DNA from: Kineosporia sp. NBRC 101731
GTDB taxonomy: Bacteria > Actinomycetota > Actinomycetes > Actinomycetales > Kineosporiaceae
Direction of reading: 5' to 3'
DNA: 24,000 bases
Assembly (NCBI RefSeq): GCF_030269305.1
Contig: NZ_BSTC01000004.1
Location: 227,963 to 251,962, forward strand
A program made the position numbers and the translations under genes. Positions 1 through 6,754 of the stretch are shown here, piece after piece (within the stretch, counting starts at the first letter, position 1; each line of letters opens with the position of its first letter). The notes beneath the pieces were generated by a model that made no database searches, was not told the origin of the DNA, and was given only the letters and a program-made list of their open reading frames with translations.

Positions 1-1
1 C

Positions 2-655
2 GGTGGATCCGATCCGGAGACCGTCGACGAGGTGAAGGTGCGGGGGCCCCTGACACTGCGCACGGGCCGGCGGGCGGTCACCGCCGCCGACTTCGAGCAA
101 CTGAGTCTGGAGAGCAGCCCCCGGCTGGCCCGAGCGCGCTGTGCGGTGCCCGAGACCGACGGTGGGCCCGTGCGGCTGCTGCTGGTGCCCCGCCGGCCAC
201 CGGCCCCGGGCCTGCGGAACGTGGACGAGTTCGCTCTCGAGGAAGAGCTTCTGGAGGAAGTCACCGCCGGTCTGGAACCGCGCCGGCTGGTCGGCTCACG
301 CATCGAGCTGACCACCCCGTACTACATCGGGGTCGCCGTGGAGGTGTCGGTGCGGGCCGCCACCGGTCACAGCGCGGCCGCGGTGCGTCAGACGGCCGAG
401 GAGACGCTGCGCACCTGGCTGGACCCGCTGCACGGGGGTGCCGACCGCAGCGGCTGGCCCTTCGACCGACATCTCACCGGGTCCGCCGTCGTGCACCGGC
501 TGGAAGGGCTGGCCGGTGTCGCGAACATCGAGGACGTGCGCCTGTACGAGTACGACCTGCGCCGGGGGGAACGGGTCGGCCCGGTCCGGGACGTCCTGAC
601 GCTGGACGCCGACAGCCTGTTCCTGCCGGGTGAGCTGATGGTGGTGGCCCGATGA
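2..655 (+). CDS. Baseplate J/gp47-like baseplate wedge protein of a contractile injection system (Afp11/Cis11-like). Only the C-terminal part is present; the 5' end lies outside the window.
   Basis: The frame is open from nt 2 (GGSDPETVDEVKVRGPLTLRTGRRAVTAADFEQL...). The '...RAVTxxDFExL' block and the following beta-rich C-terminus are typical of baseplate J family C-termini. The GTG at 32 in the track is probably internal. The stop overlaps the next gene's start as ATGA (652-655). Third-position GC bias is strong. Confidence 0.8.
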   Translation, partial: GGSDPETVDEVKVRGPLTLRTGRRAVTAADFEQLSLESSPRLARARCAVPETDGGPVRLLLVPRRPPAPGLRNVDEFALEEELLEEVTAGLEPRRLVGSRIELTTPYYIGVAVEVSVRAATGHSAAAVRQTAEETLRTWLDPLHGGADRSGWPFDRHLTGSAVVHRLEGLAGVANIEDVRLYEYDLRRGERVGPVRDVLTLDADSLFLPGELMVVAR

Positions 656-1659
656 GTGCGCCGGCCCCCGGCTGGCTCGCCCGGCAACTGCCGGTCGTCA
701 TGCAGCAGGACGACTTCACGGTGCGCTTCCTCGCGATCTTCGAGGACCTGGCGGACACCCTGCTGCACTCGGTGGGTTCGGTGGCCGAGGCGGCCGATCC
801 CACCGTCGCGCCCGCCCCGATGGTGCCCTGGCTCGGGAGCTGGATCGCCGGCCCCGTCGATCCCGCCGCCGGCACCCACCCGCTGCGCGACCGGGACTGG
901 CTGCGAGCGCAGTCCCGGGCGCTGGGGGCCCGGGGCACCCGGGCCGGTCTGGAGCAGTGGCTGTCCCTGCTGTCCGGCGGGCGCCCGGTCGAGATCATCG
1001 ACGGCGGTGGCGTCTACCGCGAGGGTCAGGCCCCGGAGGGAGCGACCGGCTGGGTCCAGGTCCGGATGCCACTGGCCGGCGATGTGGATGCGCAGCAGGT
1101 CGTCGCCCTGATCGAGGACGAGGTGCCCATCGGCGTGAGGGTCGAGCTCCTGGTGATTCCGGACGAGCCCTCCGGGGTGCCCCGGCCCCGGGACGCTCAG
1201 GACGATGCCGATCACACCGATCACACCGCTGACGCCGATCTCCGGGAGCCGATGCCGGGCGGCCCGTACTTCTGGGACGGCGGGGACGAGGACGTCTTTC
1301 CGCCCCTGTGGGAGGAAGCGATCCCGGCCCCGGAAGTCACGGAGAACACGCAGGAGGCCCCGCTGTCCGGTGCGCTGCGCCGGCTTCCGGGAACGGGCGG
1401 ACGGGCCGTGCGCGCCGGGCGCTTGTGCCCGGAGTGCGCCGAGCCCAACGCCTTCGGATCACTCACGTGCCTCCGATGTGCATCGGTGTTGCGGGTTCCC
1501 CGTCCGGTGGCGGAGCCGGTTCCGGAGCCCGAACCGGAGCCCTTGTGGGACGACGAGGACTGGCTGCCACAGCGGCGGACCCGGCCCGTCGTCGTCGCGA
1601 CGGCCGGGCTGCTCCTGCTTTTGAGCCTCATCCTGTTCCTCACGTACCTCCTGCGCTGA
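652..1659 (+). CDS. P2 gpI-like baseplate/tail protein (Afp12/Cis12-like), residues ~1-170. It carries a C-terminal extension: an acidic/Pro-rich linker, a CxxC-x13-CxxC zinc ribbon (nt 1426-1479) and a C-terminal TM helix (nt ~1588-1653).
   Basis: The N-terminus WLARQLPVVMQQDDFTVRFLAIFEDLADTLL matches the usual start of tail-protein-I family members. ATGA coupling to the baseplate J gene gives the canonical J-I order. The extension contains CPECAEPNAFGSLTCLRCASVL, then PEPEPEP, then RRTRPVVVATAGLLLLLSLILFLTYLLR at the very C-terminus. Confidence 0.7.
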   Translation: MSAPAPGWLARQLPVVMQQDDFTVRFLAIFEDLADTLLHSVGSVAEAADPTVAPAPMVPWLGSWIAGPVDPAAGTHPLRDRDWLRAQSRALGARGTRAGLEQWLSLLSGGRPVEIIDGGGVYREGQAPEGATGWVQVRMPLAGDVDAQQVVALIEDEVPIGVRVELLVIPDEPSGVPRPRDAQDDADHTDHTADADLREPMPGGPYFWDGGDEDVFPPLWEEAIPAPEVTENTQEAPLSGALRRLPGTGGRAVRAGRLCPECAEPNAFGSLTCLRCASVLRVPRPVAEPVPEPEPEPLWDDEDWLPQRRTRPVVVATAGLLLLLSLILFLTYLLR

Positions 1660-2518
1660 GCCTCACCGGCGCCAGGGTGGTCCTGGCGCTCGTCACCGTC
1701 TCCACCATCACGCAGGCACCGCTGTAGCCGCGGCTGCGGAAGTAGATCGCGTATATGCCGGGCGGCAGATCCGCGCTCCAGTCGTGGCCGCTGATCGTGA
1801 CCGGGTACGTGGTCCGGCCCGTGCGGGCGCTCGCGCCGCTGAGGTTCTCGCGCGAGAGACCACGCACGAACGCCGTGATCGGTGAGGAGGCACCGCCGTC
1901 CAGGAACACCGTGCCCTGGACCCGTACGGGGCCCGGGGCGCGACGCATGCGGGCCACATTGGCATCCCGGTCGGCGGTGTCGACGATGGCCGCCAGGGTG
2001 CGCGCCCGCGGTCCGGCCGACGCGGCCGTGAACACTTTCACCCCCGCCACGACCATCAGCAGCAGCGCGACCAGCAACACGGCGATCACGGCGACCACCC
2101 GAGGACGCCGCGTTGCCGGTCGCGCAGAACCGCTCGGGGGTTGTGGTCGGTCGGTGAACGGCGGGCGGCGAACCGTCAGCTGGGAATCGGCGACCGGCAC
2201 CGGAGCACCCGAGGTCTGCGCGGTCAGGGTCCAGAGGTACCGGCCGGGCAACGTTCCGGCCGGAGGGGTCAGGTAGACGAAGACCTCAGCCGTGTTGTGA
2301 CCCGGCAACTGCAGGACCTGGGCCGGCGGGCACCAGGACGACGGCAGGCCCCGGGCGAGCAGAACAGCCCGCACCTCCTCGCCCGTCAGGTTCTGGACGG
2401 TTCCACGCACGACCACCGTCTGGCCGGCGTCGACCGTCCCTTCCTGAGCCGTCACCCTCAGCGTGGCGCGGTCACCTGACCAGGACGCTGCCTGCCGGTC
2501 TGTTGTGGGGCTGCTCAT
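1640..2518 (-). CDS. Bitopic membrane protein, paralog 3: N-terminal Ig-like (CARDB/NEW3-like) domain, one TM helix, C-terminal carboxypeptidase-regulatory-like beta-sandwich.
   Basis: I place the start at the internal ATG at 2518 (MSSPTTDRQ...), not at track position 2614. A GGAAGGAG Shine-Dalgarno lies just upstream. This ATG overlaps the upstream gene's stop as ATGA (2515-2518). The TM is RRPRVVAVIAVLLVALLLMVVAGV. The C-terminal 'VRVQGTVFLDG...LPPGIYAIYFRSRGY' is a CarboxypepD_reg-like pattern. Confidence 0.7.
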   Translation of the reverse strand: MSSPTTDRQAASWSGDRATLRVTAQEGTVDAGQTVVVRGTVQNLTGEEVRAVLLARGLPSSWCPPAQVLQLPGHNTAEVFVYLTPPAGTLPGRYLWTLTAQTSGAPVPVADSQLTVRRPPFTDRPQPPSGSARPATRRPRVVAVIAVLLVALLLMVVAGVKVFTAASAGPRARTLAAIVDTADRDANVARMRRAPGPVRVQGTVFLDGGASSPITAFVRGLSRENLSGASARTGRTTYPVTISGHDWSADLPPGIYAIYFRSRGYSGACVMVETVTSARTTLAPVRLSAGGT

Positions 2519-4401
2519 GAAACTCCTTCCGACGACGTTTCGGTGGGTGTGGCCGGTGGGGCGGTCGTCGCCGACGGCCGGACGCAGATGAAGACGTCGT
2601 GCCACCAGGAGCACCCGGCCGGGCCCGACACGCCGTCCTCCCCCGGGGGACCGCTGGGACCCGGCGGACCGGAAGGCCCTACGGCGCCGTCCGTTCCGTC
2701 AGCACCGTCGCTGCCGTTCGTCCCGTCGGTGCCGTCACTCCCGCCGGTGCCGGCCGTGCCGTCGGTGCCGTTCGTTCCGTCCGTGCCGTCCGTTCCGTTC
2801 GTGCCGTCGATGCCGTTGGTTCCGTCCCGGCCGTTCGTACCGTCCGCACCCGGGTCGCCCGTCGTCCCCGCACCACCCCGGTCACCGCGAGGGCCGGGTT
2901 CTCCGGTCGCACCCGGCGGAAGCCGCAGTCCGCTCGCGGGATCCGGGGCCAGTCGTAAGGTCACGTCGGCGGGCACCCCCGGCTCCAGCGTCACGGTGGC
3001 CTGAGCCGGGCGGTATCCCTCCTTGGCGGCGACCACCGTGTAGCGGGCCGGGGCAAGCACGTCCTTCGCCACGAATACCGCGGTACCCGGCAGTTGCTCC
3101 GCCTGCCTCACCCCCGCTCCCGGAGCCGCGGTTCCCTCACCCAGCTGAAGATTCACCTCGGCACCCGCCGGGATGTCCATGTCGAGGGTCACGACGACCG
3201 TTCCCAGCGCCAGTCCCGGCACCATCGGATTCAGCGACGTGCCTTCACCACCGGTCGCGGTGACCGGTGCCGCATCCTCCGGGTCGGTCGCCTGGGGGTA
3301 CCAGATCGGATGCGGACCCGTGCCTTCGAGCCGGATCAGGTACTCCCCGGACGGAACCTCCATCTGCCAGGTGCCGTCCGCACCGAAATCCTTGGTGCTG
3401 ACCACCGGGACGGCGGTGTCATCGAGCCGGTACGCGGAGACGACCGCACCGGTGGGCAGTCCCCGGCCCCGACGTCCGCCGCTGCTCACCGGCGCCGCAC
3501 GTCCGGACCGGACCGACTCGGGCTCCGGCTGCACCGTTCCCTTCAGGAAGCAGGGGCAGTCGGCCGAACCGTCCGCCGCTCCCCCGACGTGCGGATCGCT
3601 GACCTCGTCCAGTTGATCGGCGGTATTGGCCTGTTCCACGTCGTGCTGGGTGAAGATCGCGCCCACGGTGACGGCGGCCACGCCGAGCACCAGCGCCAGG
3701 ACCACCAGACTCGCCCCCAGCGACAACGCGGCCCGGCTGATCCGCGGTTTCTGCAGGAAAGCTCCCTGGGCCAGCGGCCCCTCGACAGGAACCCCGATCC
3801 GGCGTTCCTGATCCGTGCGCGCATCCGCATACACCGAGAACATCCGGGGCGCCGGCATACCCGTCCAGGGCCGGCGCCGCCGGACCGTCACGTCGATGCG
3901 GGTCTGCTCCCCCGGCGCCAGGTCCAGCCGCTCCGAGCTGAAATCGAAGGTGAGCCGGGCCTCGTCGTCCACTCCCACCAGAGGGCTGCCCACGGTCGTG
4001 TTGCCGGCGTTCTCGGCCCTCAGCCGGAAACCGGCACGACGGCCTCCGGACACCAGCGGCGGCCTGACCGTCAGCAGCAGGCGCTCCCGGGCGGGCACGT
4101 GCACCTCGACCGGCTGCAGCCAGCATTCCTGGCGGCCACCGACCTCCTGGACCTGCACCGTCAGGGGATGGGAGCCGGCGGGAAACGTCTCCGGCAGGAG
4201 CACCCGCACCGTCAGCTCGCGCGATTCACCGGGAAAGAGCTCGAACTCAGGAACGCCGACCTCGACCCAGTCCGGGTCGGCCCCCAGAATGCGCACCGAG
4301 AACGCGGAAATGGTGTCCCGGACGTTCTGCACCCGCAGGGTCATCTCACCCGGCGAGCCGGCCCGGTGCACGATCTGCCCGGGTGAGAACTCGGTGATCA
4401 T
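2515..4401 (-). CDS. Bitopic membrane protein, paralog 2: two Ig-like N-terminal domains, a TM helix, two carboxypeptidase-regulatory-like domains and a C-terminal collagen-like triple-helix repeat.
   Basis: This is a 628-aa ORF with strong GC3 bias. The start ATG at 4401 overlaps the upstream stop (ATGA, 4398-4401). The TM is KPRISRAALSLGASLVVLALVLGVAAVTVGAIF, followed by an acidic segment, which implies N-in/C-out. 'LKGTV...GEYLIRLEGTG' and 'ARYTVVAAKEGYRPAQATVTLEPG' are beta-sandwich motifs. There are 32 uninterrupted G-X-Y triplets near the C-terminus. Confidence 0.8.
   Translation of the reverse strand: MITEFSPGQIVHRAGSPGEMTLRVQNVRDTISAFSVRILGADPDWVEVGVPEFELFPGESRELTVRVLLPETFPAGSHPLTVQVQEVGGRQECWLQPVEVHVPARERLLLTVRPPLVSGGRRAGFRLRAENAGNTTVGSPLVGVDDEARLTFDFSSERLDLAPGEQTRIDVTVRRRRPWTGMPAPRMFSVYADARTDQERRIGVPVEGPLAQGAFLQKPRISRAALSLGASLVVLALVLGVAAVTVGAIFTQHDVEQANTADQLDEVSDPHVGGAADGSADCPCFLKGTVQPEPESVRSGRAAPVSSGGRRGRGLPTGAVVSAYRLDDTAVPVVSTKDFGADGTWQMEVPSGEYLIRLEGTGPHPIWYPQATDPEDAAPVTATGGEGTSLNPMVPGLALGTVVVTLDMDIPAGAEVNLQLGEGTAAPGAGVRQAEQLPGTAVFVAKDVLAPARYTVVAAKEGYRPAQATVTLEPGVPADVTLRLAPDPASGLRLPPGATGEPGPRGDRGGAGTTGDPGADGTNGRDGTNGIDGTNGTDGTDGTNGTDGTAGTGGSDGTDGTNGSDGADGTDGAVGPSGPPGPSGPPGEDGVSGPAGCSWWHDVFICVRPSATTAPPATPTETSSEGVS
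2617..2904 (-). repeat. Collagen-like G-X-Y coding repeat (32 triplets, mostly GTD/GTN/GSD/GPP) inside the 2515..4401 CDS.
   Basis: The translation reads GEPGPRGDRGGAGTTGDPGADGTNGRDGTNGIDGTNGTDGTDGTNGTDGTAGTGGSDGTDGTNGSDGADGTDGAVGPSGPPGPSGPPGEDGVSGPAG. At the DNA level this appears as degenerate 9/18-bp repeats (ccgtc/ggtgccgtt...). Confidence 0.9.
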
Positions 4402-6119
4402 CCGGGATCACCTGCACAGGTCGCCGAACTCGCCGAGAACGGCACGGAATAGAAGTTCGCCCGCGCCGGGAGCACATGCAGACGACAGGCGTGCATCGCC
4501 TGCCCGCCCACGGTCATCGTGAGGTCGTAGTAGCCGGGTGCCAGCAGCCCCGTCAGACGGATCTGGCTCTCCCACCCGCCGCCGGCGGCGGGCCGGGACG
4601 GAAACTCCCCCGGCCCGGAGCCGCCCGCCGGGTCGCCGGGTCCGGCGCCTTGTGTGCCTTCCTCCCCCTTACCCGTCGGCGTCCTGGCCGGCAGCCAGAC
4701 CGGGCCGGCCGGCCGGGCCGGATCGGACCGGGCACCCTCGAACGCACCCGTCCCCGCACCGGCAGAACGACCGGCGGAAGAACCGGACAGCGCTGTCGCA
4801 GAGGGTTTCCGGGCCGAGGAAGGGATCGGCCCGCAGGCCGGGACCGGTGTCGGGGCCACCGTGACACCCGGGGACCTCCCGGCCTCCGGGGTTCCCCCGG
4901 TATCGACGTCCGCCGAGGGCTGCTTCGGCGCCGACAGCCGGGCGGTGACGTGCACGGCCGGCGTGGCGGATCCGTCCGGGTTCCGCAGCCTCACCGTCAG
5001 CTGAGCCGGACGCCCCGGCAGCCGCCCCCGGACCCGGCAGGACTCCTGGTCCACGGCGGCCCGCAGCCTCGCATTCCCGTTCCAAGGCGGTGCGAGAACG
5101 ATCTCGTAGCGGGCGGGAAAGGTGTCCGGCAGCCAGAACCGGCCCTGGCTGTCACTGGCGGTCCGGTAGGTCGTGGTGGCCTCGGTACAGCGCGACCGCG
5201 GCCGCACCGCAGGGTCCTGGCTGCACGCCAGCACCTTCACCCCGGACACCGGCGAACCGTCCACCTCCGAGACGACCAGTCCGGACAGTGTGAGCGCCAC
5301 ATCCAGAACGTCACGAGGCCCCGGACCCGTCCGGAACCCGTCGGGTACCGCGACCGGCGGTGCCTCCGGGCGGACGAAGGCACGCAGCCCGAGATATCCC
5401 AGGGTGCCCCAGATCGCCAGCACCAGAACGAGGACCACCGCGAACACCAGCCCGTGACCCAGCACGGGCCGCTGACGGAAGGTGACCCGCACGTCCTGGT
5501 GCAGCTCCTCGTCCAGCATCGGGTGCCCGGGCGTGACCGACGCGGCCACGACGCGTACATCGGCCAGGTGCTCACGGACAGCGCCGAGCAGACGCCAGGG
5601 GGCGGTGACCTCCACCCGGCAGACCTTCGTCTGCCACGGTTCGATCATGGCCTCGTCCGGCTCGAACGTCATGGAGACCCCGTCGGGGAGGTCGACCTCG
5701 CGGGGATGAACCAGCAGAGCGGTGTTCCCGCGGTTGGCGACCGTCATCGGGAAGGACACGCGACGGGTGCCCATGCGTACGCAGGGGCGGACACCGGCCG
5801 TCAGCGCGGGACGCGCGGCCACGTCGACCTGCAGGCCGGCCTGATGCTCCCTCTCGGTCGCGGTCGCCCGCACCACCACATCGACGCGGTGCCGGCCGGC
5901 CGGTACCTGGGCCGGCAGTTGCACCTGCAGCGGTAACCGCCGCCGCTCACCGGGAAACAGCGTGGGGGTGCTCTCCAGGCGCACCGTGGCCCCGGAGAGA
6001 CCGGTCAGGTCGATCTCGACCGCGTCGATCACATCGTCGGTGTTGACGACGTCGATCAGCACCTCCCCCGGAACCTCCGGTTCCAGGCTGACCTCGTCGT
6101 TGACCAGCCGGACCTCCAT
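4398..6119 (-). CDS. Bitopic membrane protein, paralog 1: two Ig-like N-terminal domains, a TM helix, a carboxypeptidase-regulatory-like domain, a long low-complexity linker and a C-terminal beta-sandwich.
   Basis: I place the start at the internal ATG at 6119 (MEVRLVNDEVSLEPE...), residue 201 of the 773-aa track ORF. The upstream 200 codons are an Arg/Gly-rich shadow of the DUF4255 gene, which is in another frame. The start overlaps the DUF4255 stop by 1 nt (TGATG). The N-terminal domains align by eye with paralog 2 (V.N..D.I.A...LFPGE.R.L...V.LP...PAG.H). The TM is VLGHGLVFAVVLVLVLAIWGTLGYLGL. Confidence 0.75.
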   Translation of the reverse strand: MEVRLVNDEVSLEPEVPGEVLIDVVNTDDVIDAVEIDLTGLSGATVRLESTPTLFPGERRRLPLQVQLPAQVPAGRHRVDVVVRATATEREHQAGLQVDVAARPALTAGVRPCVRMGTRRVSFPMTVANRGNTALLVHPREVDLPDGVSMTFEPDEAMIEPWQTKVCRVEVTAPWRLLGAVREHLADVRVVAASVTPGHPMLDEELHQDVRVTFRQRPVLGHGLVFAVVLVLVLAIWGTLGYLGLRAFVRPEAPPVAVPDGFRTGPGPRDVLDVALTLSGLVVSEVDGSPVSGVKVLACSQDPAVRPRSRCTEATTTYRTASDSQGRFWLPDTFPARYEIVLAPPWNGNARLRAAVDQESCRVRGRLPGRPAQLTVRLRNPDGSATPAVHVTARLSAPKQPSADVDTGGTPEAGRSPGVTVAPTPVPACGPIPSSARKPSATALSGSSAGRSAGAGTGAFEGARSDPARPAGPVWLPARTPTGKGEEGTQGAGPGDPAGGSGPGEFPSRPAAGGGWESQIRLTGLLAPGYYDLTMTVGGQAMHACRLHVLPARANFYSVPFSASSATCAGDPG

Positions 6120-6754
6120 CAGGCCCCGTCGCGCTGCCGTTGCCGCGAGGCCCCGAACCAGCCGGGGCGACGCCCGGTGTCCGTCGCGCTGCCCGACCGG
6201 CGCAGCGGCGCCACGGTGGTCTCCACCCGCCGGACCGGCGCCGCGACGCGCTGCGGGCGGTCCAGGGTAACGGCGGTCGTGGCGACGAGAACCAGAGAGG
6301 GGCGCAGCTTTCCCCCCAGACCACCCCAAAGATCCCGGCCTCTGACCTGTTCCGGATCCGCCAGGGCGATGTTCACCTTGCCCGTGATCTCCCCGCCCTC
6401 CGTGTCCCCGTCCAGCACCGGTGTCCGCAGCAGACCTCGCACGGCATCCCCCAGGAGCCGGTGCTCCTCCCGCACCCCGCCACCCCAGGCACTCAGGAGG
6501 TACGAGAACGAGACCACGGGCGCCGGCCGGTCCCGCACGACCACCCCGTTGGTGTCGCGGTACGGACCGGTCACCGCGGGTTGCACTGCCGCCCGGGCAA
6601 TGTCGAAAAGAAAAAGGTTCAGTGTCGGCCGCGTGAGAGACGTACCCCAGGTGCCGTCCGGGCTCTCGAACGAGACGTCCCCGTCCTCCTCGGGCAGCGG
6701 CACCTCTTCTTGCAACCACGACTTCAGCGTGCTTTCCAGCGCGGACAGCGGCAC
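6119..6754 (-). CDS. DUF4255 / Pvc16-N-like protein (Afp16/Cis16-type tail terminator/cap of contractile injection systems).
   Basis: This is a 211-aa ORF. It has a GTG start with a GGGGAGGA Shine-Dalgarno 4 nt upstream. MPLSALESTLKSWLQEE...PTLNLFLFDIARA...SFSYLLSAWG fits the DUF4255 pattern as I remember it. It sits next to other CIS genes. Confidence 0.7.
   Translation of the reverse strand: MPLSALESTLKSWLQEEVPLPEEDGDVSFESPDGTWGTSLTRPTLNLFLFDIARAAVQPAVTGPYRDTNGVVVRDRPAPVVSFSYLLSAWGGGVREEHRLLGDAVRGLLRTPVLDGDTEGGEITGKVNIALADPEQVRGRDLWGGLGGKLRPSLVLVATTAVTLDRPQRVAAPVRRVETTVAPLRRSGSATDTGRRPGWFGASRQRQRDGA

What the first reader, a model, noticed from the sequence alone, without database searches (positions are those of the whole stretch)
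1156..1659. Baseplate gpI-like protein carries a C-terminal zinc ribbon and a tail-anchor transmembrane helix
The conserved tail-protein-I domain ends at about residue 170. The remaining ~165 residues begin with an acidic/Pro-rich linker. They continue with a four-cysteine ribbon (CPECAEPNAFGSLTCLRCASVL, nt 1426-1479) and a PEPEPEP spacer. The final 23 residues are a hydrophobic helix preceded by RRTR (VVVATAGLLLLLSLILFLTYLL, nt ~1588-1653).

A structural baseplate wedge subunit that is itself tail-anchored would tether the baseplate directly to the cytoplasmic membrane. That recalls membrane-anchored CIS such as the thylakoid-anchored system of cyanobacteria, rather than free extracellular particles. 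Together with the three bitopic proteins next door, four membrane-inserted proteins flank the baseplate genes.
Basis: partly seen in the sequence, partly recalled or inferred. Interest (0 to 1): 0.7.

Follow-up and report, generated by a model that had tools for sequence, protein, structure and literature searches.

The report
Baseplate protein fused to membrane anchor
In Kineosporia, a baseplate subunit of a phage-tail-like injection machine is fused to a small zinc-binding membrane anchor that related bacteria encode as a separate gene, which suggests where such anchors attach to the machine.

Summary
ORF 652-1659 (335 aa, Kineosporia sp. NBRC 101731) has a Cis12 baseplate-wedge domain (aa 1-170). 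This is followed by a disordered linker, an invariant RRLPGTGGRA motif, a CxxC...CxxC zinc ribbon, a PEPEPEP spacer, RRTR, and a 22-residue hydrophobic helix ending one residue before the stop. Codon bias supports the whole frame. About 25 Kineosporiaceae homologues keep every element.

The main new result is that the extension is a gene fusion. In 10 of 10 CIS loci examined from other Actinomycetota (Nocardioides, Jatrophihabitans, Acidimicrobiia), cis12 is short. It is followed at once by a separate gene for a roughly 145-aa tail-anchored double-zinc-ribbon protein that is homologous to the extension (hhalign 99.7%). That family is large and has no family model or description in the resources searched. 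It is collinear with the cytoplasmic part of Streptomyces CisA (hhalign 96%), the membrane protein needed for CIS firing, but it lacks CisA's extracellular domain.

The most likely function is to tether the six baseplate wedges covalently to the cytoplasmic membrane. Membrane insertion was not tested. This is a new variant of a known kind. The fusion suggests, without proving, that CisA-like anchors dock at the Cis12/Cis11 wedge.

The parts
1..655 (+). 3' part of the cis11 (baseplate-J-like wedge) gene. It runs off the left edge of the window.
   Evidence: TIGR02243 'putative baseplate assembly protein' E 1.6e-29, matching profile positions 491-658 of 659. The stop overlaps the cis12 start (ATGA).
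652..1659 (+). cis12-anchor fusion gene, 335 aa.
   Evidence: Single ORF. GC3 is 0.73-0.97 throughout. It is 100% identical to a Kineosporia sp. NBRC 101731 hypothetical protein.
652..1161 (+). Cis12 / phage tail protein I wedge domain (aa 1-170).
   Evidence: TIGR02242 E 2e-17, 63.5 bits against a cut-off of 51.85. The profile hits PDB 9GTP chain E (S. coelicolor CIS baseplate) at E 2.1e-19 over aa 11-172. The Foldseek top hit is 9GTP at E 7e-7. Model pLDDT is about 86.
1162..1359 (+). Acidic, Pro-rich disordered linker (aa 171-236). It contains two conserved short motifs: VPRPR (aa 176-180) and PGGPYFWDGG..PPL (aa 202-220, nt 1255-1311).
   Evidence: pLDDT is below 55. Linker identity is 0.28-0.33, against 0.49 for the PYFWDGG block. 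W38, D39 and G40 are invariant in alignment A4. The resemblance to the 'CD[YF]PLFW' end of the first zinc ribbon of the free-standing family is visual only and is not supported by hhalign.
1360..1404 (+). LSGALRRLPGTGGRA motif (aa 237-251), the signature of the anchor family.
   Evidence: R, L, P, G and G are invariant in A2 and A3. Mean pairwise identity is 0.70. The motif is predicted to be disordered in the free-standing protein (pLDDT about 50), so it is probably a short linear binding motif (inference).
1426..1491 (+). Four-cysteine zinc ribbon (aa 259-280; Cys 259, 262, 273 and 276). It corresponds to the second ribbon of the free-standing family.
   Evidence: All four Cys are invariant. 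The model shows beta-hairpins with pLDDT 85-90. hhalign against the free-standing family gives 99.7%. Relatives give zinc-ribbon Pfam hits that fall below the cut-offs. Metal binding was not tested.
1492..1572 (+). Pro/Glu-rich spacer, including PEPEPEP (nt 1522-1542) and LWDDEDW.
   Evidence: The same kind of spacer is present in the free-standing proteins.
1573..1587 (+). Basic juxtamembrane block RRTRP (family consensus ERRIWP).
   Evidence: Identity is 0.65. The basic residues lie on the N-terminal side of the helix, which fits an N-in orientation by the positive-inside rule (established knowledge).
1588..1653 (+). C-terminal transmembrane (tail-anchor) helix, aa 313-334, followed by one Arg and the stop.
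   Evidence: KD 2.70 and Hessa sum -3.4. Helix pLDDT is about 95. Hydrophobicity is conserved but sequence is not (identity 0.35).
1640..2614 (-). Bitopic protein B1: cytoplasmic Ig-like NEW3 domain, one TM, then a C-terminal extracytoplasmic domain. Its 3' end overlaps cis12 by 20 nt.
   Evidence: PF10633 E 5e-7. Single TM at aa 173-191 preceded by RPATRRPR.
2515..4401 (-). Bitopic protein B2: tandem Ig-like N-terminal region, one TM, a PEGA/CarboxypepD_reg-like region, collagen-like repeats.
   Evidence: Collagen E 3.8e-14, with weaker FixG_C, NEW3 and PEGA hits. TM at aa 232-250. The N-terminus is 30% identical to B3 (E 2e-12).
4398..6119 (-). Bitopic protein B3 (573 aa). The mechanical ORF call to 6719 is over-extended.
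   Evidence: GC3 jumps from about 0.5 to about 0.87 at the MEVRLV start, nt 6119. NEW3 and CarboxypepD_reg hits are weak.
6119..6754 (-). cis16 (cap, Pvc16_N), the first gene of the convergent operon cap-B3-B2-B1.
   Evidence: PF14065 E 7.1e-28. The order is the same in L001 and L002.
7668..9704 (-). cis15-like AAA+ ATPase.
   Evidence: AAA E 1.6e-26 and WHD E 2.1e-9. The position is the same in L001 and L002.

Best explanation
The gene encodes the Cis12 baseplate-wedge subunit of a contractile injection system (CIS). It is fused in frame to a CisA-like membrane adaptor that lacks CisA's extracellular domain.

In other Actinomycetota the adaptor is a separate protein of about 145 aa, encoded directly after cis12. 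Its layout is: zinc ribbon 1, RRLPGTxGR motif, zinc ribbon 2, Pro/Glu spacer, C-terminal TM helix. In Kineosporiaceae the two genes have merged. The cysteines of ribbon 1 are gone. The RRLPGTGGRA motif, ribbon 2, the spacer, the basic juxtamembrane block and the tail-anchor helix are retained.

Inferred mechanism:
1. The helix is inserted post-translationally into the cytoplasmic membrane in the N-in orientation, with essentially nothing exposed outside.
2. If the stoichiometry is that of the solved Streptomyces baseplate (one Cis12 per wedge, six wedges), each baseplate would be held at the inner face of the membrane by six flexible tethers of about 140 residues.
3. The CIS would therefore be constitutively membrane-associated, rather than free-floating and recruited through a non-covalent CisA contact as proposed for S. 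coelicolor.
4. The conserved cytoplasmic RRLPGTGGRA / zinc-ribbon unit probably binds another component. Candidates are Cis11 or the cytoplasmic Ig-like domains of the three bitopic proteins encoded opposite.

Shown here: the domain anatomy, its conservation, the fusion origin, the homology to the free-standing family, and the collinearity with CisA. Inferred: membrane insertion, topology, tethering, and the binding partner.
For: Cis12 identity: TIGR02242 scores above its cut-off. PDB 9GTP Cis12 is hit at E 2.1e-19. Foldseek's top hit is 9GTP. The gene is translationally coupled to cis11. It lies in a full CIS cluster in K. succinea and in a metagenome contig.

Fusion origin:
- Ten of ten non-Kineosporia loci have a short cis12 (180-262 aa) followed at once by a separate ZR1-RLPGTxG-ZR2-PEPEP-TM gene. 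These are L005-L010 and L012 and L013-L015.
- hhalign of the extension against the small-protein family gives 99.7%, E 2.6e-26.
- A profile of the extension finds 633 representatives at E<=1e-3 among 1.84 billion proteins. About 100 of the 150 listed are small proteins with the module at the extreme C-terminus; the rest are generic multi-zinc-ribbon repeat proteins.
- A profile of the small proteins finds 490 clusters at E<=1e-5.

Tail-anchor character: a strong, conserved hydrophobic end segment with 0-8 residues after it, basic residues before it, and no other hydrophobic segment.

Link to CisA:
- Both genes sit directly after cis12.
- HHpred of Sco4242 shows zinc ribbons at aa 5-28 and 219-244 before its TM (PMC10020575, Supplementary Data 7).
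- hhalign of a CisA cytoplasmic profile against the small family gives 96.0%, score 61.9. Controls with reversed or column-shuffled alignments score 9-22.
- hhalign of the CisA cytoplasmic profile against the Kineosporia extension gives 95.3%.

Functional precedent:
- CisA is a membrane protein with a cytoplasmic N-terminus, needed for CIS contraction in situ, and predicted to touch the wedge protein Cis11 (PMC12237407).
- The Anabaena CIS is anchored by a C-terminal TM helix of Cis13 (PMC8894136).
- The stoichiometry of one Cis12 per wedge comes from PMC12237407.
Against: - Nothing here shows that the helix is in a membrane. No topology predictor or experiment was available; hydropathy and the positive-inside rule are all there is.
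- The window protein itself gets no Pfam hit, not even a zinc-ribbon family, at E<=10.
- The similarity to CisA is weak. With single CisA homologues only the second ribbon aligns (71% and 22% probability). At hhalign's default setting the confident alignment is 29 columns. Zinc ribbons and TM helices are generic, so the 96% may overstate homology.
- A covalently tethered wedge could hinder baseplate assembly or the conformational change at firing. The long linker makes this less of a problem but does not remove it.
- The binding partner of the RRLPGTGGRA motif is unknown.
- S. coelicolor CIS are mostly free-floating, so membrane residence is not a general property of the clade.
Confidence: 0.6

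Rival explanations
1. The extension acts as a firing trigger or sensor rather than a passive tether. Like CisA, the anchor may be needed to set off contraction. The Cys4 zinc site could work as a stress- or redox-sensitive switch that changes how the wedge is held. This overlaps with the tether model rather than excluding it.
For: In S. coelicolor, loss of CisA leaves particles extended in ghost cells, so CisA acts in firing and not in assembly (PMC12237407). Firing there follows stress. The four Cys and the adjacent RRLPGTGGRA motif are the most conserved part of the extension.
Against: There is no evidence of redox sensing in this family. A small zinc ribbon is more often a structural or interaction module. 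Nothing in the sequence separates a trigger from a tether.
Confidence: 0.2
2. The product is a polyprotein. It is cleaved in the linker, for example near the conserved VPRPR motif just after the Cis12 domain. Cleavage would restore the two-protein arrangement of other Actinomycetota, so the wedge would not be covalently anchored.
For: A P-x-P-R motif directly after the Cis12 domain is nearly invariant (R10 in alignment A4). The ancestral state is two separate proteins.
Against: No protease, intein or known cleavage signal was seen. The fusion is stable across sequences only 38-62% identical. There is no conserved internal start codon that would indicate separate translation: the codon is GTT in L001 and L003.
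Confidence: 0.1
3. The hydrophobic C-terminal helix is not in the bilayer. It is buried in the particle, for example as a six-helix bundle under the baseplate, or it binds a hydrophobic partner.
For: Membrane insertion was not tested. AlphaFold2 confidence for an isolated helix says nothing about its environment.
Against: The helix is 22 residues of Leu, Val, Ile and Ala with no conserved polar or packing positions (identity 0.35, while hydrophobicity is always kept). It is flanked by Arg and Trp as lipid-facing anchors are. It sits at the end of a roughly 140-residue disordered tether. Free-standing homologues of 137-150 aa consist of little else. The collinear CisA segment was shown experimentally to be a membrane span.
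Confidence: 0.06
4. The fusion is an assembly or annotation artefact: a lost stop codon or a frameshift joining cis12 to the next gene.
For: One metagenomic protein (P0067, 732 aa) joins Cis11, Cis12 and the anchor through stretches that look out of frame. This shows that such artefacts occur.
Against: The open frame with high GC3 is continuous in the window. The same fusion is present in independent genomes of K. succinea, K. aurantiaca, K. babensis, Kineosporia sp. J2-2, a Kineosporiaceae MAG and about 20 metagenome clusters. The fused form also has its own derived features, namely the lost ribbon-1 cysteines and the PGGPYFWDGG motif.
Confidence: 0.02

Closest known systems
CisA (SCO4242) of the Streptomyces coelicolor CIS (PMC12237407, PMC10020575, PMC10066040)
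   Same: - Encoded directly downstream of cis12.
- Single-pass membrane protein with a cytoplasmic N-terminus.
- The cytoplasmic part is laid out as zinc ribbon, long disordered region, zinc ribbon, basic juxtamembrane block, TM.
- Profile-profile similarity to the small family is 96% and to the Kineosporia extension 95%.
- Proposed to link the baseplate wedge to the cytoplasmic membrane and shown to be needed for firing.
   Different: - CisA is a separate polypeptide of about 400-470 aa.
- It has an extracytoplasmic domain of about 150 aa that binds glycans (discoidin / NADase type). The Kineosporia protein ends one residue after the helix.
- CisA has VLPGRPEAARP where the family here has RRLPGTxGR.
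- Sequence similarity is marginal with single sequences.
- CisA's predicted partner is Cis11, and that interaction is unconfirmed.
Free-standing tail-anchored double-zinc-ribbon proteins encoded after cis12 in Nocardioides, Jatrophihabitans, Nakamurella and Acidimicrobiia. No family model (Pfam, NCBIfam) and no paper in the resources searched.
   Same: Homologous from the RRLPGTxGR motif to the C-terminus (hhalign 99.7%). Same spacer, same juxtamembrane Trp/Arg and same helix at the extreme C-terminus. Same CIS cluster type, with convergent bitopic CarboxypepD_reg proteins.
   Different: These are separate genes. They have an intact first zinc ribbon (CPxCG...FCxxCD[YF]PLFW) that Kineosporia lacks.
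Anabaena thylakoid-anchored CIS: Cis13 and the Cis12 extension (PMC8894136)
   Same: A CIS held on an internal face of a membrane by extensions of baseplate-associated proteins. A C-terminal TM helix does the anchoring. Removing it gave free-floating particles.
   Different: The TM helix there is on the trimeric fibre-like Cis13, not on Cis12. The Anabaena Cis12 extension is about 500 aa, has no TM helix (only a putative amphipathic helix) and has no zinc ribbon. The membrane is the thylakoid. No sequence relationship was found.
TssL of the type VI secretion system membrane complex
   Same: A C-tail-anchored inner-membrane protein whose cytoplasmic domain docks the contractile machine's baseplate to the membrane. 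This rests on established knowledge and was not tested here.
   Different: Unrelated fold (DotU-like helical domain). It is part of a trans-envelope complex with TssM and TssJ. It is not fused to a wedge protein.
Hbor_38620, the putative anchor of the haloarchaeal T6SS-like CIS (PMC11566945)
   Same: A conserved membrane protein associated with a CIS cluster and proposed to hold the baseplate at the cytoplasmic membrane.
   Different: It has six TM helices plus a cytoplasmic domain of about 150 aa. It is encoded upstream of the cluster and is not fused to Cis12.

Membership tests
Cis12 / phage tail protein I (TIGR02242, PF09684) | Sequence match to the family model above the curated cut-off. 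| tested here: met
   TIGR02242 scores 63.5 bits against a cut-off of 51.85, E 2e-17. Pfam PF09684 gives no hit for this protein but does hit its short relatives.
Cis12 / phage tail protein I (TIGR02242, PF09684) | Similarity in sequence and fold to a Cis12 solved within a CIS baseplate. | tested here: met
   PDB 9GTP chain E at E 2.1e-19 over aa 11-172. Foldseek top hit 9GTP at E 7e-7.
Cis12 / phage tail protein I (TIGR02242, PF09684) | Encoded directly after the baseplate-J (Cis11) gene in a CIS cluster. | tested here: met
   The ATGA overlap with the TIGR02243 gene. A full cluster lies upstream in L001 and L002.
Free-standing tail-anchored double-zinc-ribbon CIS proteins (undescribed family defined here) | RLPGTxG motif followed by a CPxCxE.N...CxRC ribbon. 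| tested here: met
   RRLPGTGGRA plus CPECAEPN...CLRC. hhalign 99.7%.
Free-standing tail-anchored double-zinc-ribbon CIS proteins (undescribed family defined here) | Pro/Glu-rich spacer, then a single TM helix within 0-8 residues of the C-terminus. | tested here: met
Free-standing tail-anchored double-zinc-ribbon CIS proteins (undescribed family defined here) | First zinc ribbon CPxCG...FCxxCD[YF]PLFW. | tested here: not met
   There is no Cys upstream of aa 259. The window protein has four Cys in total. Only a PGGPYFWDGG motif remains, and its equivalence to PLFW is unproven.
Free-standing tail-anchored double-zinc-ribbon CIS proteins (undescribed family defined here) | Separate gene downstream of cis12. 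| tested here: not met
   It is fused in frame to cis12 in the window and in all Kineosporiaceae loci examined.
CisA (SCO4242) family | Conserved extracytoplasmic C-terminal glycan-binding domain of about 150 aa after the TM. | tested here: not met
   One residue follows the helix. CisA homologues carry a discoidin / NADase-type domain.
CisA (SCO4242) family | Cys-rich zinc-binding region immediately before a single TM, with a cytoplasmic N-terminus. | tested here: met
   The architecture matches. hhalign 95.3% over 85 columns from ribbon 2 to the TM.
CisA (SCO4242) family | Significant direct or reciprocal sequence similarity to CisA. | tested here: inconclusive
   Profile against a single sequence gives 71% and 22%, over the ribbon only. 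Profile against profile gives 96%, and controls score far lower. No Streptomyces protein appears among the top 120-150 hits of either family search.
Tail-anchored membrane proteins | A single hydrophobic TM segment at the extreme C-terminus, no N-terminal signal or other TM, and the bulk of the protein cytosolic. | tested here: met
   Only one window exceeds KD 1.6, at aa 310-335. The N-terminal domain is a cytoplasmic baseplate subunit.
Tail-anchored membrane proteins | Demonstrated post-translational insertion into the membrane. | not testable with these tools
   This needs fractionation or topology reporters.
Zinc ribbon | Two CxxC knuckles on beta-hairpins that coordinate one zinc ion. | tested here: inconclusive
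   The four Cys are invariant, and the model has short strands at high confidence. Pfam zinc-ribbon models hit relatives only below their cut-offs and do not hit the window protein. Metal binding was not tested.

The most novel reading that the evidence does not exclude
Kineosporia may run a permanently membrane-tethered, T6SS-like CIS in which the wedge subunit Cis12 is itself a tail-anchored membrane protein. On this reading, the fused module represents a large family not described in the resources searched: CisA-like anchors without an extracellular domain, used by a large clade of actinobacterial CIS. The fusion would mark Cis12 as the anchor's docking partner. It would then also identify the lost first zinc ribbon as the docking element, and the invariant RRLPGTxGR motif as the handle for a second partner, such as the cytoplasmic Ig-like domains of the convergently encoded bitopic proteins.
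Probability: 0.35. Interest if true: 0.75.

Novelty: new variant of a known kind. Interest (0 to 1): 0.6.

Why it matters
How cytoplasmic CIS of Gram-positive actinomycetes meet the membrane is an open question. CisA is needed for firing in S. coelicolor, but its contact with the particle could not be shown, because expression of cisA is toxic in E. coli and that blocked co-purification and two-hybrid tests (PMC12237407).

A natural in-frame fusion of a CisA-like anchor to Cis12 is independent, genome-based evidence that such anchors work at the Cis12/Cis11 wedge. It also offers a simpler test system, because the anchor has no extracellular domain.

The work also shows that most of this clade uses a small anchor of about 145 aa for which neither Pfam/NCBIfam nor the papers searched hold a description. 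The anchor has an invariant RRLPGTxGR motif, which gives concrete residues to mutate.

If Kineosporia CIS prove to be constitutively membrane-bound, this would add a covalent wedge tether to the known modes of CIS anchoring. Those are the T6SS membrane complex, the thylakoid anchor Cis13, and CisA.

Tried and rejected
- Frameshift or early stop: rejected, because GC3 is high throughout the ORF and the fusion is conserved.
- An internal translation start before PGGPYFW that would still make a separate small protein: rejected. The Met at aa 201 is not conserved, and the codon is GTT in L001 and L003.
- Wider occurrence of Cis12-anchor fusions: only Kineosporiaceae were found. The 732-aa P0067 joins Cis11, Cis12 and the anchor but contains stretches that look out of frame, so it was not counted. 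Other long hits (P0055, P0063, P0071, P0102, P0125) have no Cis12 domain; P0055, the one whose sequence was read, is a free-standing anchor with a long disordered N-terminus.
- tblastn matches that seemed to extend to query residue 276-328 in Nocardioides and Acidimicrobiia loci turned out to be the separate downstream gene. The cis12 ORFs there are short.
- Pfam, NCBIfam and PADLOC gave no family for the extension or for the small proteins.
- Equivalence of PGGPYFWDGG with the 'CDYPLFW' end of ribbon 1: not supported, because hhalign starts its alignment only at LSGAxRRLPGT. It is kept as a visual lead only.
- Exact look-up of the window protein's contig failed. Context was taken from K. succinea and from a metagenome contig instead.
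- Literature searches for Kineosporia CIS, and for tail-anchored or zinc-ribbon CIS proteins, found no description.
- Multimer modelling of the anchor with Cis11, Cis12 or the bitopic proteins was not possible with the tools available.
Full report
**Observation.** The window has 71% G+C. ORF 652-1659 (+) encodes 335 aa with no interruption. Its ATG overlaps the stop of the preceding gene (ATGA). That gene matches the C-terminal end of TIGR02243 'putative baseplate assembly protein', which is Cis11 or baseplate J.

- four Cys at aa 259, 262, 273 and 276 (nt 1426-1479);
- PEPEPEP at aa 291-297;
- RRTR at aa 308-311;
- a 22-residue Leu/Val/Ile/Ala stretch at aa 313-334, followed by one Arg and the stop.

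Third-position GC is 0.73-0.97 in every 30-codon window, including the extension. The frame is therefore the coding frame to the end. The protein is identical to a hypothetical protein of Kineosporia sp. NBRC 101731. That genus belongs to the Actinomycetota, order Kineosporiales.

**The N-terminal half is Cis12.** TIGR02242 scores above its cut-off (E 2e-17). A profile of the family hits a single PDB sequence, 9GTP chain E. This is a 190-aa subunit of the S. coelicolor CIS baseplate (E 2.1e-19, query positions 11-172). The AlphaFold2 model (N-domain pLDDT about 86) has 9GTP as its best Foldseek match, followed by baseplate subunits of cyanophage A-1(L), diffocin and phiCD508. According to PMC12237407, each CIS-Sc wedge holds two Cis11 and one Cis12, which means six Cis12 per baseplate. 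S. coelicolor Cis12 has no extension.

**The cluster.** In K. succinea (L001) and a metagenome contig (L002) the same gene closes an operon. The operon runs: Septum_form, DUF4280, sheath, two gp19 tubes, CIS_tube-LysM, VgrG, (eCIS_core), gp25, baseplate J, Cis12 fusion. A convergent operon faces it and encodes the cap (Pvc16_N) followed by three bitopic proteins. An AAA+ ATPase gene lies beyond. The window shows the same layout:
- cap at 6119-6754 (PF14065 E 7e-28);
- B3 at 4398-6119, with its true start fixed by a GC3 jump;
- B2 at 2515-4401;
- B1 at 1640-2614;
- ATPase at 7668-9704.

Each B protein has an Ig-like N-terminal part (NEW3 / FixG_C), one hydrophobic segment preceded by basic residues, and a C-terminal part with CarboxypepD_reg, PEGA or collagen-like repeats. 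The N-termini of B2 and B3 are 30% identical.

**The extension is conserved.** Twenty-four further proteins, 287-352 aa long and 38-62% identical, come from Kineosporia species and soil metagenomes. They share the whole architecture. All have a hydrophobic end segment (KD 2.5-3.4) that stops 0-8 residues before the terminus. 24 of 25 keep the CxxC...CxxC. Conservation is uneven in an informative way:
- LSGALRRLPGTGGRA block: 0.70;
- juxtamembrane ERRIWP block: 0.65;
- zinc ribbon: 0.54;
- linkers: about 0.3;
- TM helix: 0.35, with hydrophobicity always retained. This is the pattern of a lipid-facing anchor and not of a packed helix.

The next closest relatives, of about 180-260 aa from Nocardioides and Acidimicrobiia, end with the Cis12 domain.

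**The extension is a fused gene.** I read the DNA after the short cis12 genes in those relatives. An adjacent or slightly overlapping separate ORF appears there (e.g. L006 10489-10956, L005 10441-11082). It encodes the following, in order: CPxCG...FCxxCD[YF]PLFW (ribbon 1), about 18 residues, LRRLPGTxGR, CPxCxEPN...CxRCG (ribbon 2), a PEPEPEP-type spacer, Trp/Arg, a TM helix, and the stop.

This holds in all seven non-Kineosporia loci from the genome scan (L005-L010, L012). It also holds in three more loci reached from the protein side: Jatrophihabitans fulvus (L013), Acidiferrimicrobium (L014) and a 2.9-Mb contig (L015). In each, the small gene follows Tail_P2_I/Cis12 and faces convergent, often giant (2,100-2,750 aa) CarboxypepD_reg-repeat proteins.

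hhalign of the Kineosporia extension against this family gives 99.7% probability, E 2.6e-26. The 84 aligned columns run from LSGAxRRLPGT to the helix.

The family is large:
- A profile of the extension finds 633 representatives at E<=1e-3 and 108 at E<=1e-10 among 1.84 billion. About 100 of the 150 listed are 137-290 aa with the module at the very C-terminus; the rest are generic multi-zinc-ribbon repeat proteins.
- A profile of the small proteins finds 490 clusters at E<=1e-5.
- Every name a source gives among the 120 listed is 'hypothetical protein' or a generic automatic zinc-ribbon label; the named genera are Nocardioides, Jatrophihabitans and Acidiferrimicrobium, plus unclassified Acidimicrobiia. 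A Nakamurella multipartita member came from a separate cluster look-up.
- No Pfam or NCBIfam model reaches its cut-off.
- I found no paper describing the family.

An AlphaFold2 model of a free-standing member has two confident ribbons (pLDDT 88 and 95) and a confident helix. The invariant RRLPGTxGR lies in a low-confidence loop (about 50). That is what one expects of a short linear motif that orders only on a partner; this is an inference.

In Kineosporiaceae the ribbon-1 cysteines are absent. A conserved PGGPYFWDGG motif sits roughly where 'CDYPLFW' would be, but hhalign does not align it. I treat that resemblance only as a lead.

**Relation to CisA.** SCO4242/CisA is encoded in the same position, directly after cis12. 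It is a bitopic membrane protein with a cytoplasmic N-terminus. It is needed for CIS contraction in situ. Its 'largely unstructured' cytosolic part is predicted, but not shown, to bind Cis11 (PMC12237407). Vladimirov et al. noted a Cys-rich, probably zinc-binding region just before its TM and suggested that it attaches the protein to the baseplate (PMC10020575). Their HHpred table shows zinc-ribbon hits at aa 5-28 and 219-244.

I recovered CisA homologues from a S. clavuligerus plasmid and a Kitasatospora plasmid and 139 further Streptomyces homologues. Their cytoplasmic part reads as follows: CPDCGTPAR..GQSFCDSCGAFLRW, a long disordered region, PGxVLPGRPEAARP, CPxCxTxN...FCRSCAxPL, GPYAGQRPxLxRDRxRW, then the TM. 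This is collinear with the small family.

The profile-profile comparison gives 96.0% (E 3.8e-9, score 61.9). Controls score 22.5 for a reversed alignment and 9-13 for eight column-shuffled alignments. The Kineosporia extension against the CisA cytoplasmic profile gives 95.3% over 85 columns.

There are caveats. With single CisA sequences only ribbon 2 aligns (71% and 22%). At default stringency the confident core is 29 columns. CisA also carries an extracellular glycan-binding domain of about 150 aa that is absent here. I therefore call the extension CisA-like and probably distantly homologous, but not a CisA family member.

**Mechanism.** The following are shown: the identity of both halves, the fusion event, the conserved elements and the tail-anchor sequence character. 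The rest is inferred.
- The helix emerges from the ribosome only at termination, so it must be inserted post-translationally. That is how bacterial tail-anchored proteins such as TssL are inserted (established knowledge, not tested here).
- Basic residues on the N-side predict an N-in topology, with virtually nothing exposed outside.
- Assuming the one-Cis12-per-wedge stoichiometry of the solved S. coelicolor baseplate, six copies per baseplate would give six tethers of about 140 residues. These would be flexible but short enough to keep the baseplate at the inner face of the membrane.
- This turns the proposed transient, non-covalent CisA-to-baseplate contact into a permanent one.
- By the usual logic of gene fusions, the free-standing anchor probably acts next to Cis12. 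Loss of the ribbon-1 cysteines after fusion fits ribbon 1 having been the docking element.
- The retained RRLPGTGGRA / ribbon-2 unit must then serve another purpose. That could be binding Cis11 or binding the cytoplasmic Ig-like domains of B1-B3. S. coelicolor has Sco4256-4258, which share an N-terminal domain followed by a TM and a variable C-terminus.

**Rivals.**
- The module is mainly a firing trigger or sensor. This is compatible with the tether model.
- The linker is cleaved near the conserved VPRPR, restoring two proteins.
- The helix is buried in the particle rather than in lipid.
- The fusion is an artefact. This one is effectively excluded.

**Verdict.** However, the Anabaena system is the more distant analogue: there Cis12 has no TM helix and the anchor is Cis13. 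The finding is best described as a new variant of a known kind, namely CIS membrane anchoring by accessory proteins encoded next to the baseplate genes. It has two new elements: a covalent Cis12-anchor fusion confined to Kineosporiaceae, and a broad family of CisA-like anchors without an extracellular domain, not described in the resources searched, from which the fusion derives.

Noticed in passing
window 1640-6754 (-): The cap gene (Pvc16_N) heads an operon with three bitopic proteins. Each has an Ig-like NEW3/FixG_C cytoplasmic N-terminus, one TM, and an extracytoplasmic part with CarboxypepD_reg, PEGA or collagen repeats. In related loci the counterparts are giant proteins of 2,100-2,750 aa (L006 12172-20097; L013-L015). 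The layout resembles the Sco4256-4258 putative effector/toxin family of Streptomyces CIS.
   Followed up: partly
window ~2600-2900 (-), B2 aa ~495-600: A collagen-like GT(N/D)G(x)DG triplet repeat (Pfam Collagen E 3.8e-14) lies in the predicted extracytoplasmic tail of B2. This is a fibre-like element in the genomic position where eCIS encode tail fibres.
   Followed up: no
window 1640-1659: cis12 and the convergent gene B1 overlap by 20 nt at their 3' ends. The same convergent overlap occurs in L001 (14 nt) and L002 (41 nt), so there is no room for a terminator between the two operons.
   Followed up: partly
window 9779-10684 (-): The ORF next to the CIS AAA+ ATPase has a weak hit to an OTT_1508-like deaminase domain (E 1.3e-5, just under the cut-off). 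It could be a toxin or effector of the system. The adjacent 438-aa ORF (10641-11957) has no family hit.
   Followed up: no
L001 3570-5229; L002 4080-5741: The Kineosporia-type clusters show no long tape-measure-like gene between the tube genes and the CIS_tube-LysM gene. L013 and L014 have genes of 789 and 1,157 aa at that position.
   Followed up: no
window 1177-1191 (aa 176-180, VPRPR): A nearly invariant P-x-P-R motif lies directly after the Cis12 domain in the fused proteins. Its role is unknown; it could be a cleavage site or a binding site.
   Followed up: no
window 4398-6719 (-): The mechanical ORF call of 773 aa for B3 is over-extended by 200 codons. GC3 is about 0.5 upstream of nt 6119, and that stretch is actually the cap gene in another frame.
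   Followed up: yes
protein P0067 (metagenome, 732 aa): A single called protein spans Cis11, Cis12 and the small anchor, with stretches that look out of frame. It is probably a frameshifted assembly and not a triple fusion.
   Followed up: partly
window 6984-7652 (+): A DUF5648 protein (E 2.2e-18) with an N-terminal signal-like RR...hydrophobic segment sits between the cap operon and the ATPase gene. A DUF5648 gene occupies the same place in L002.
   Followed up: no
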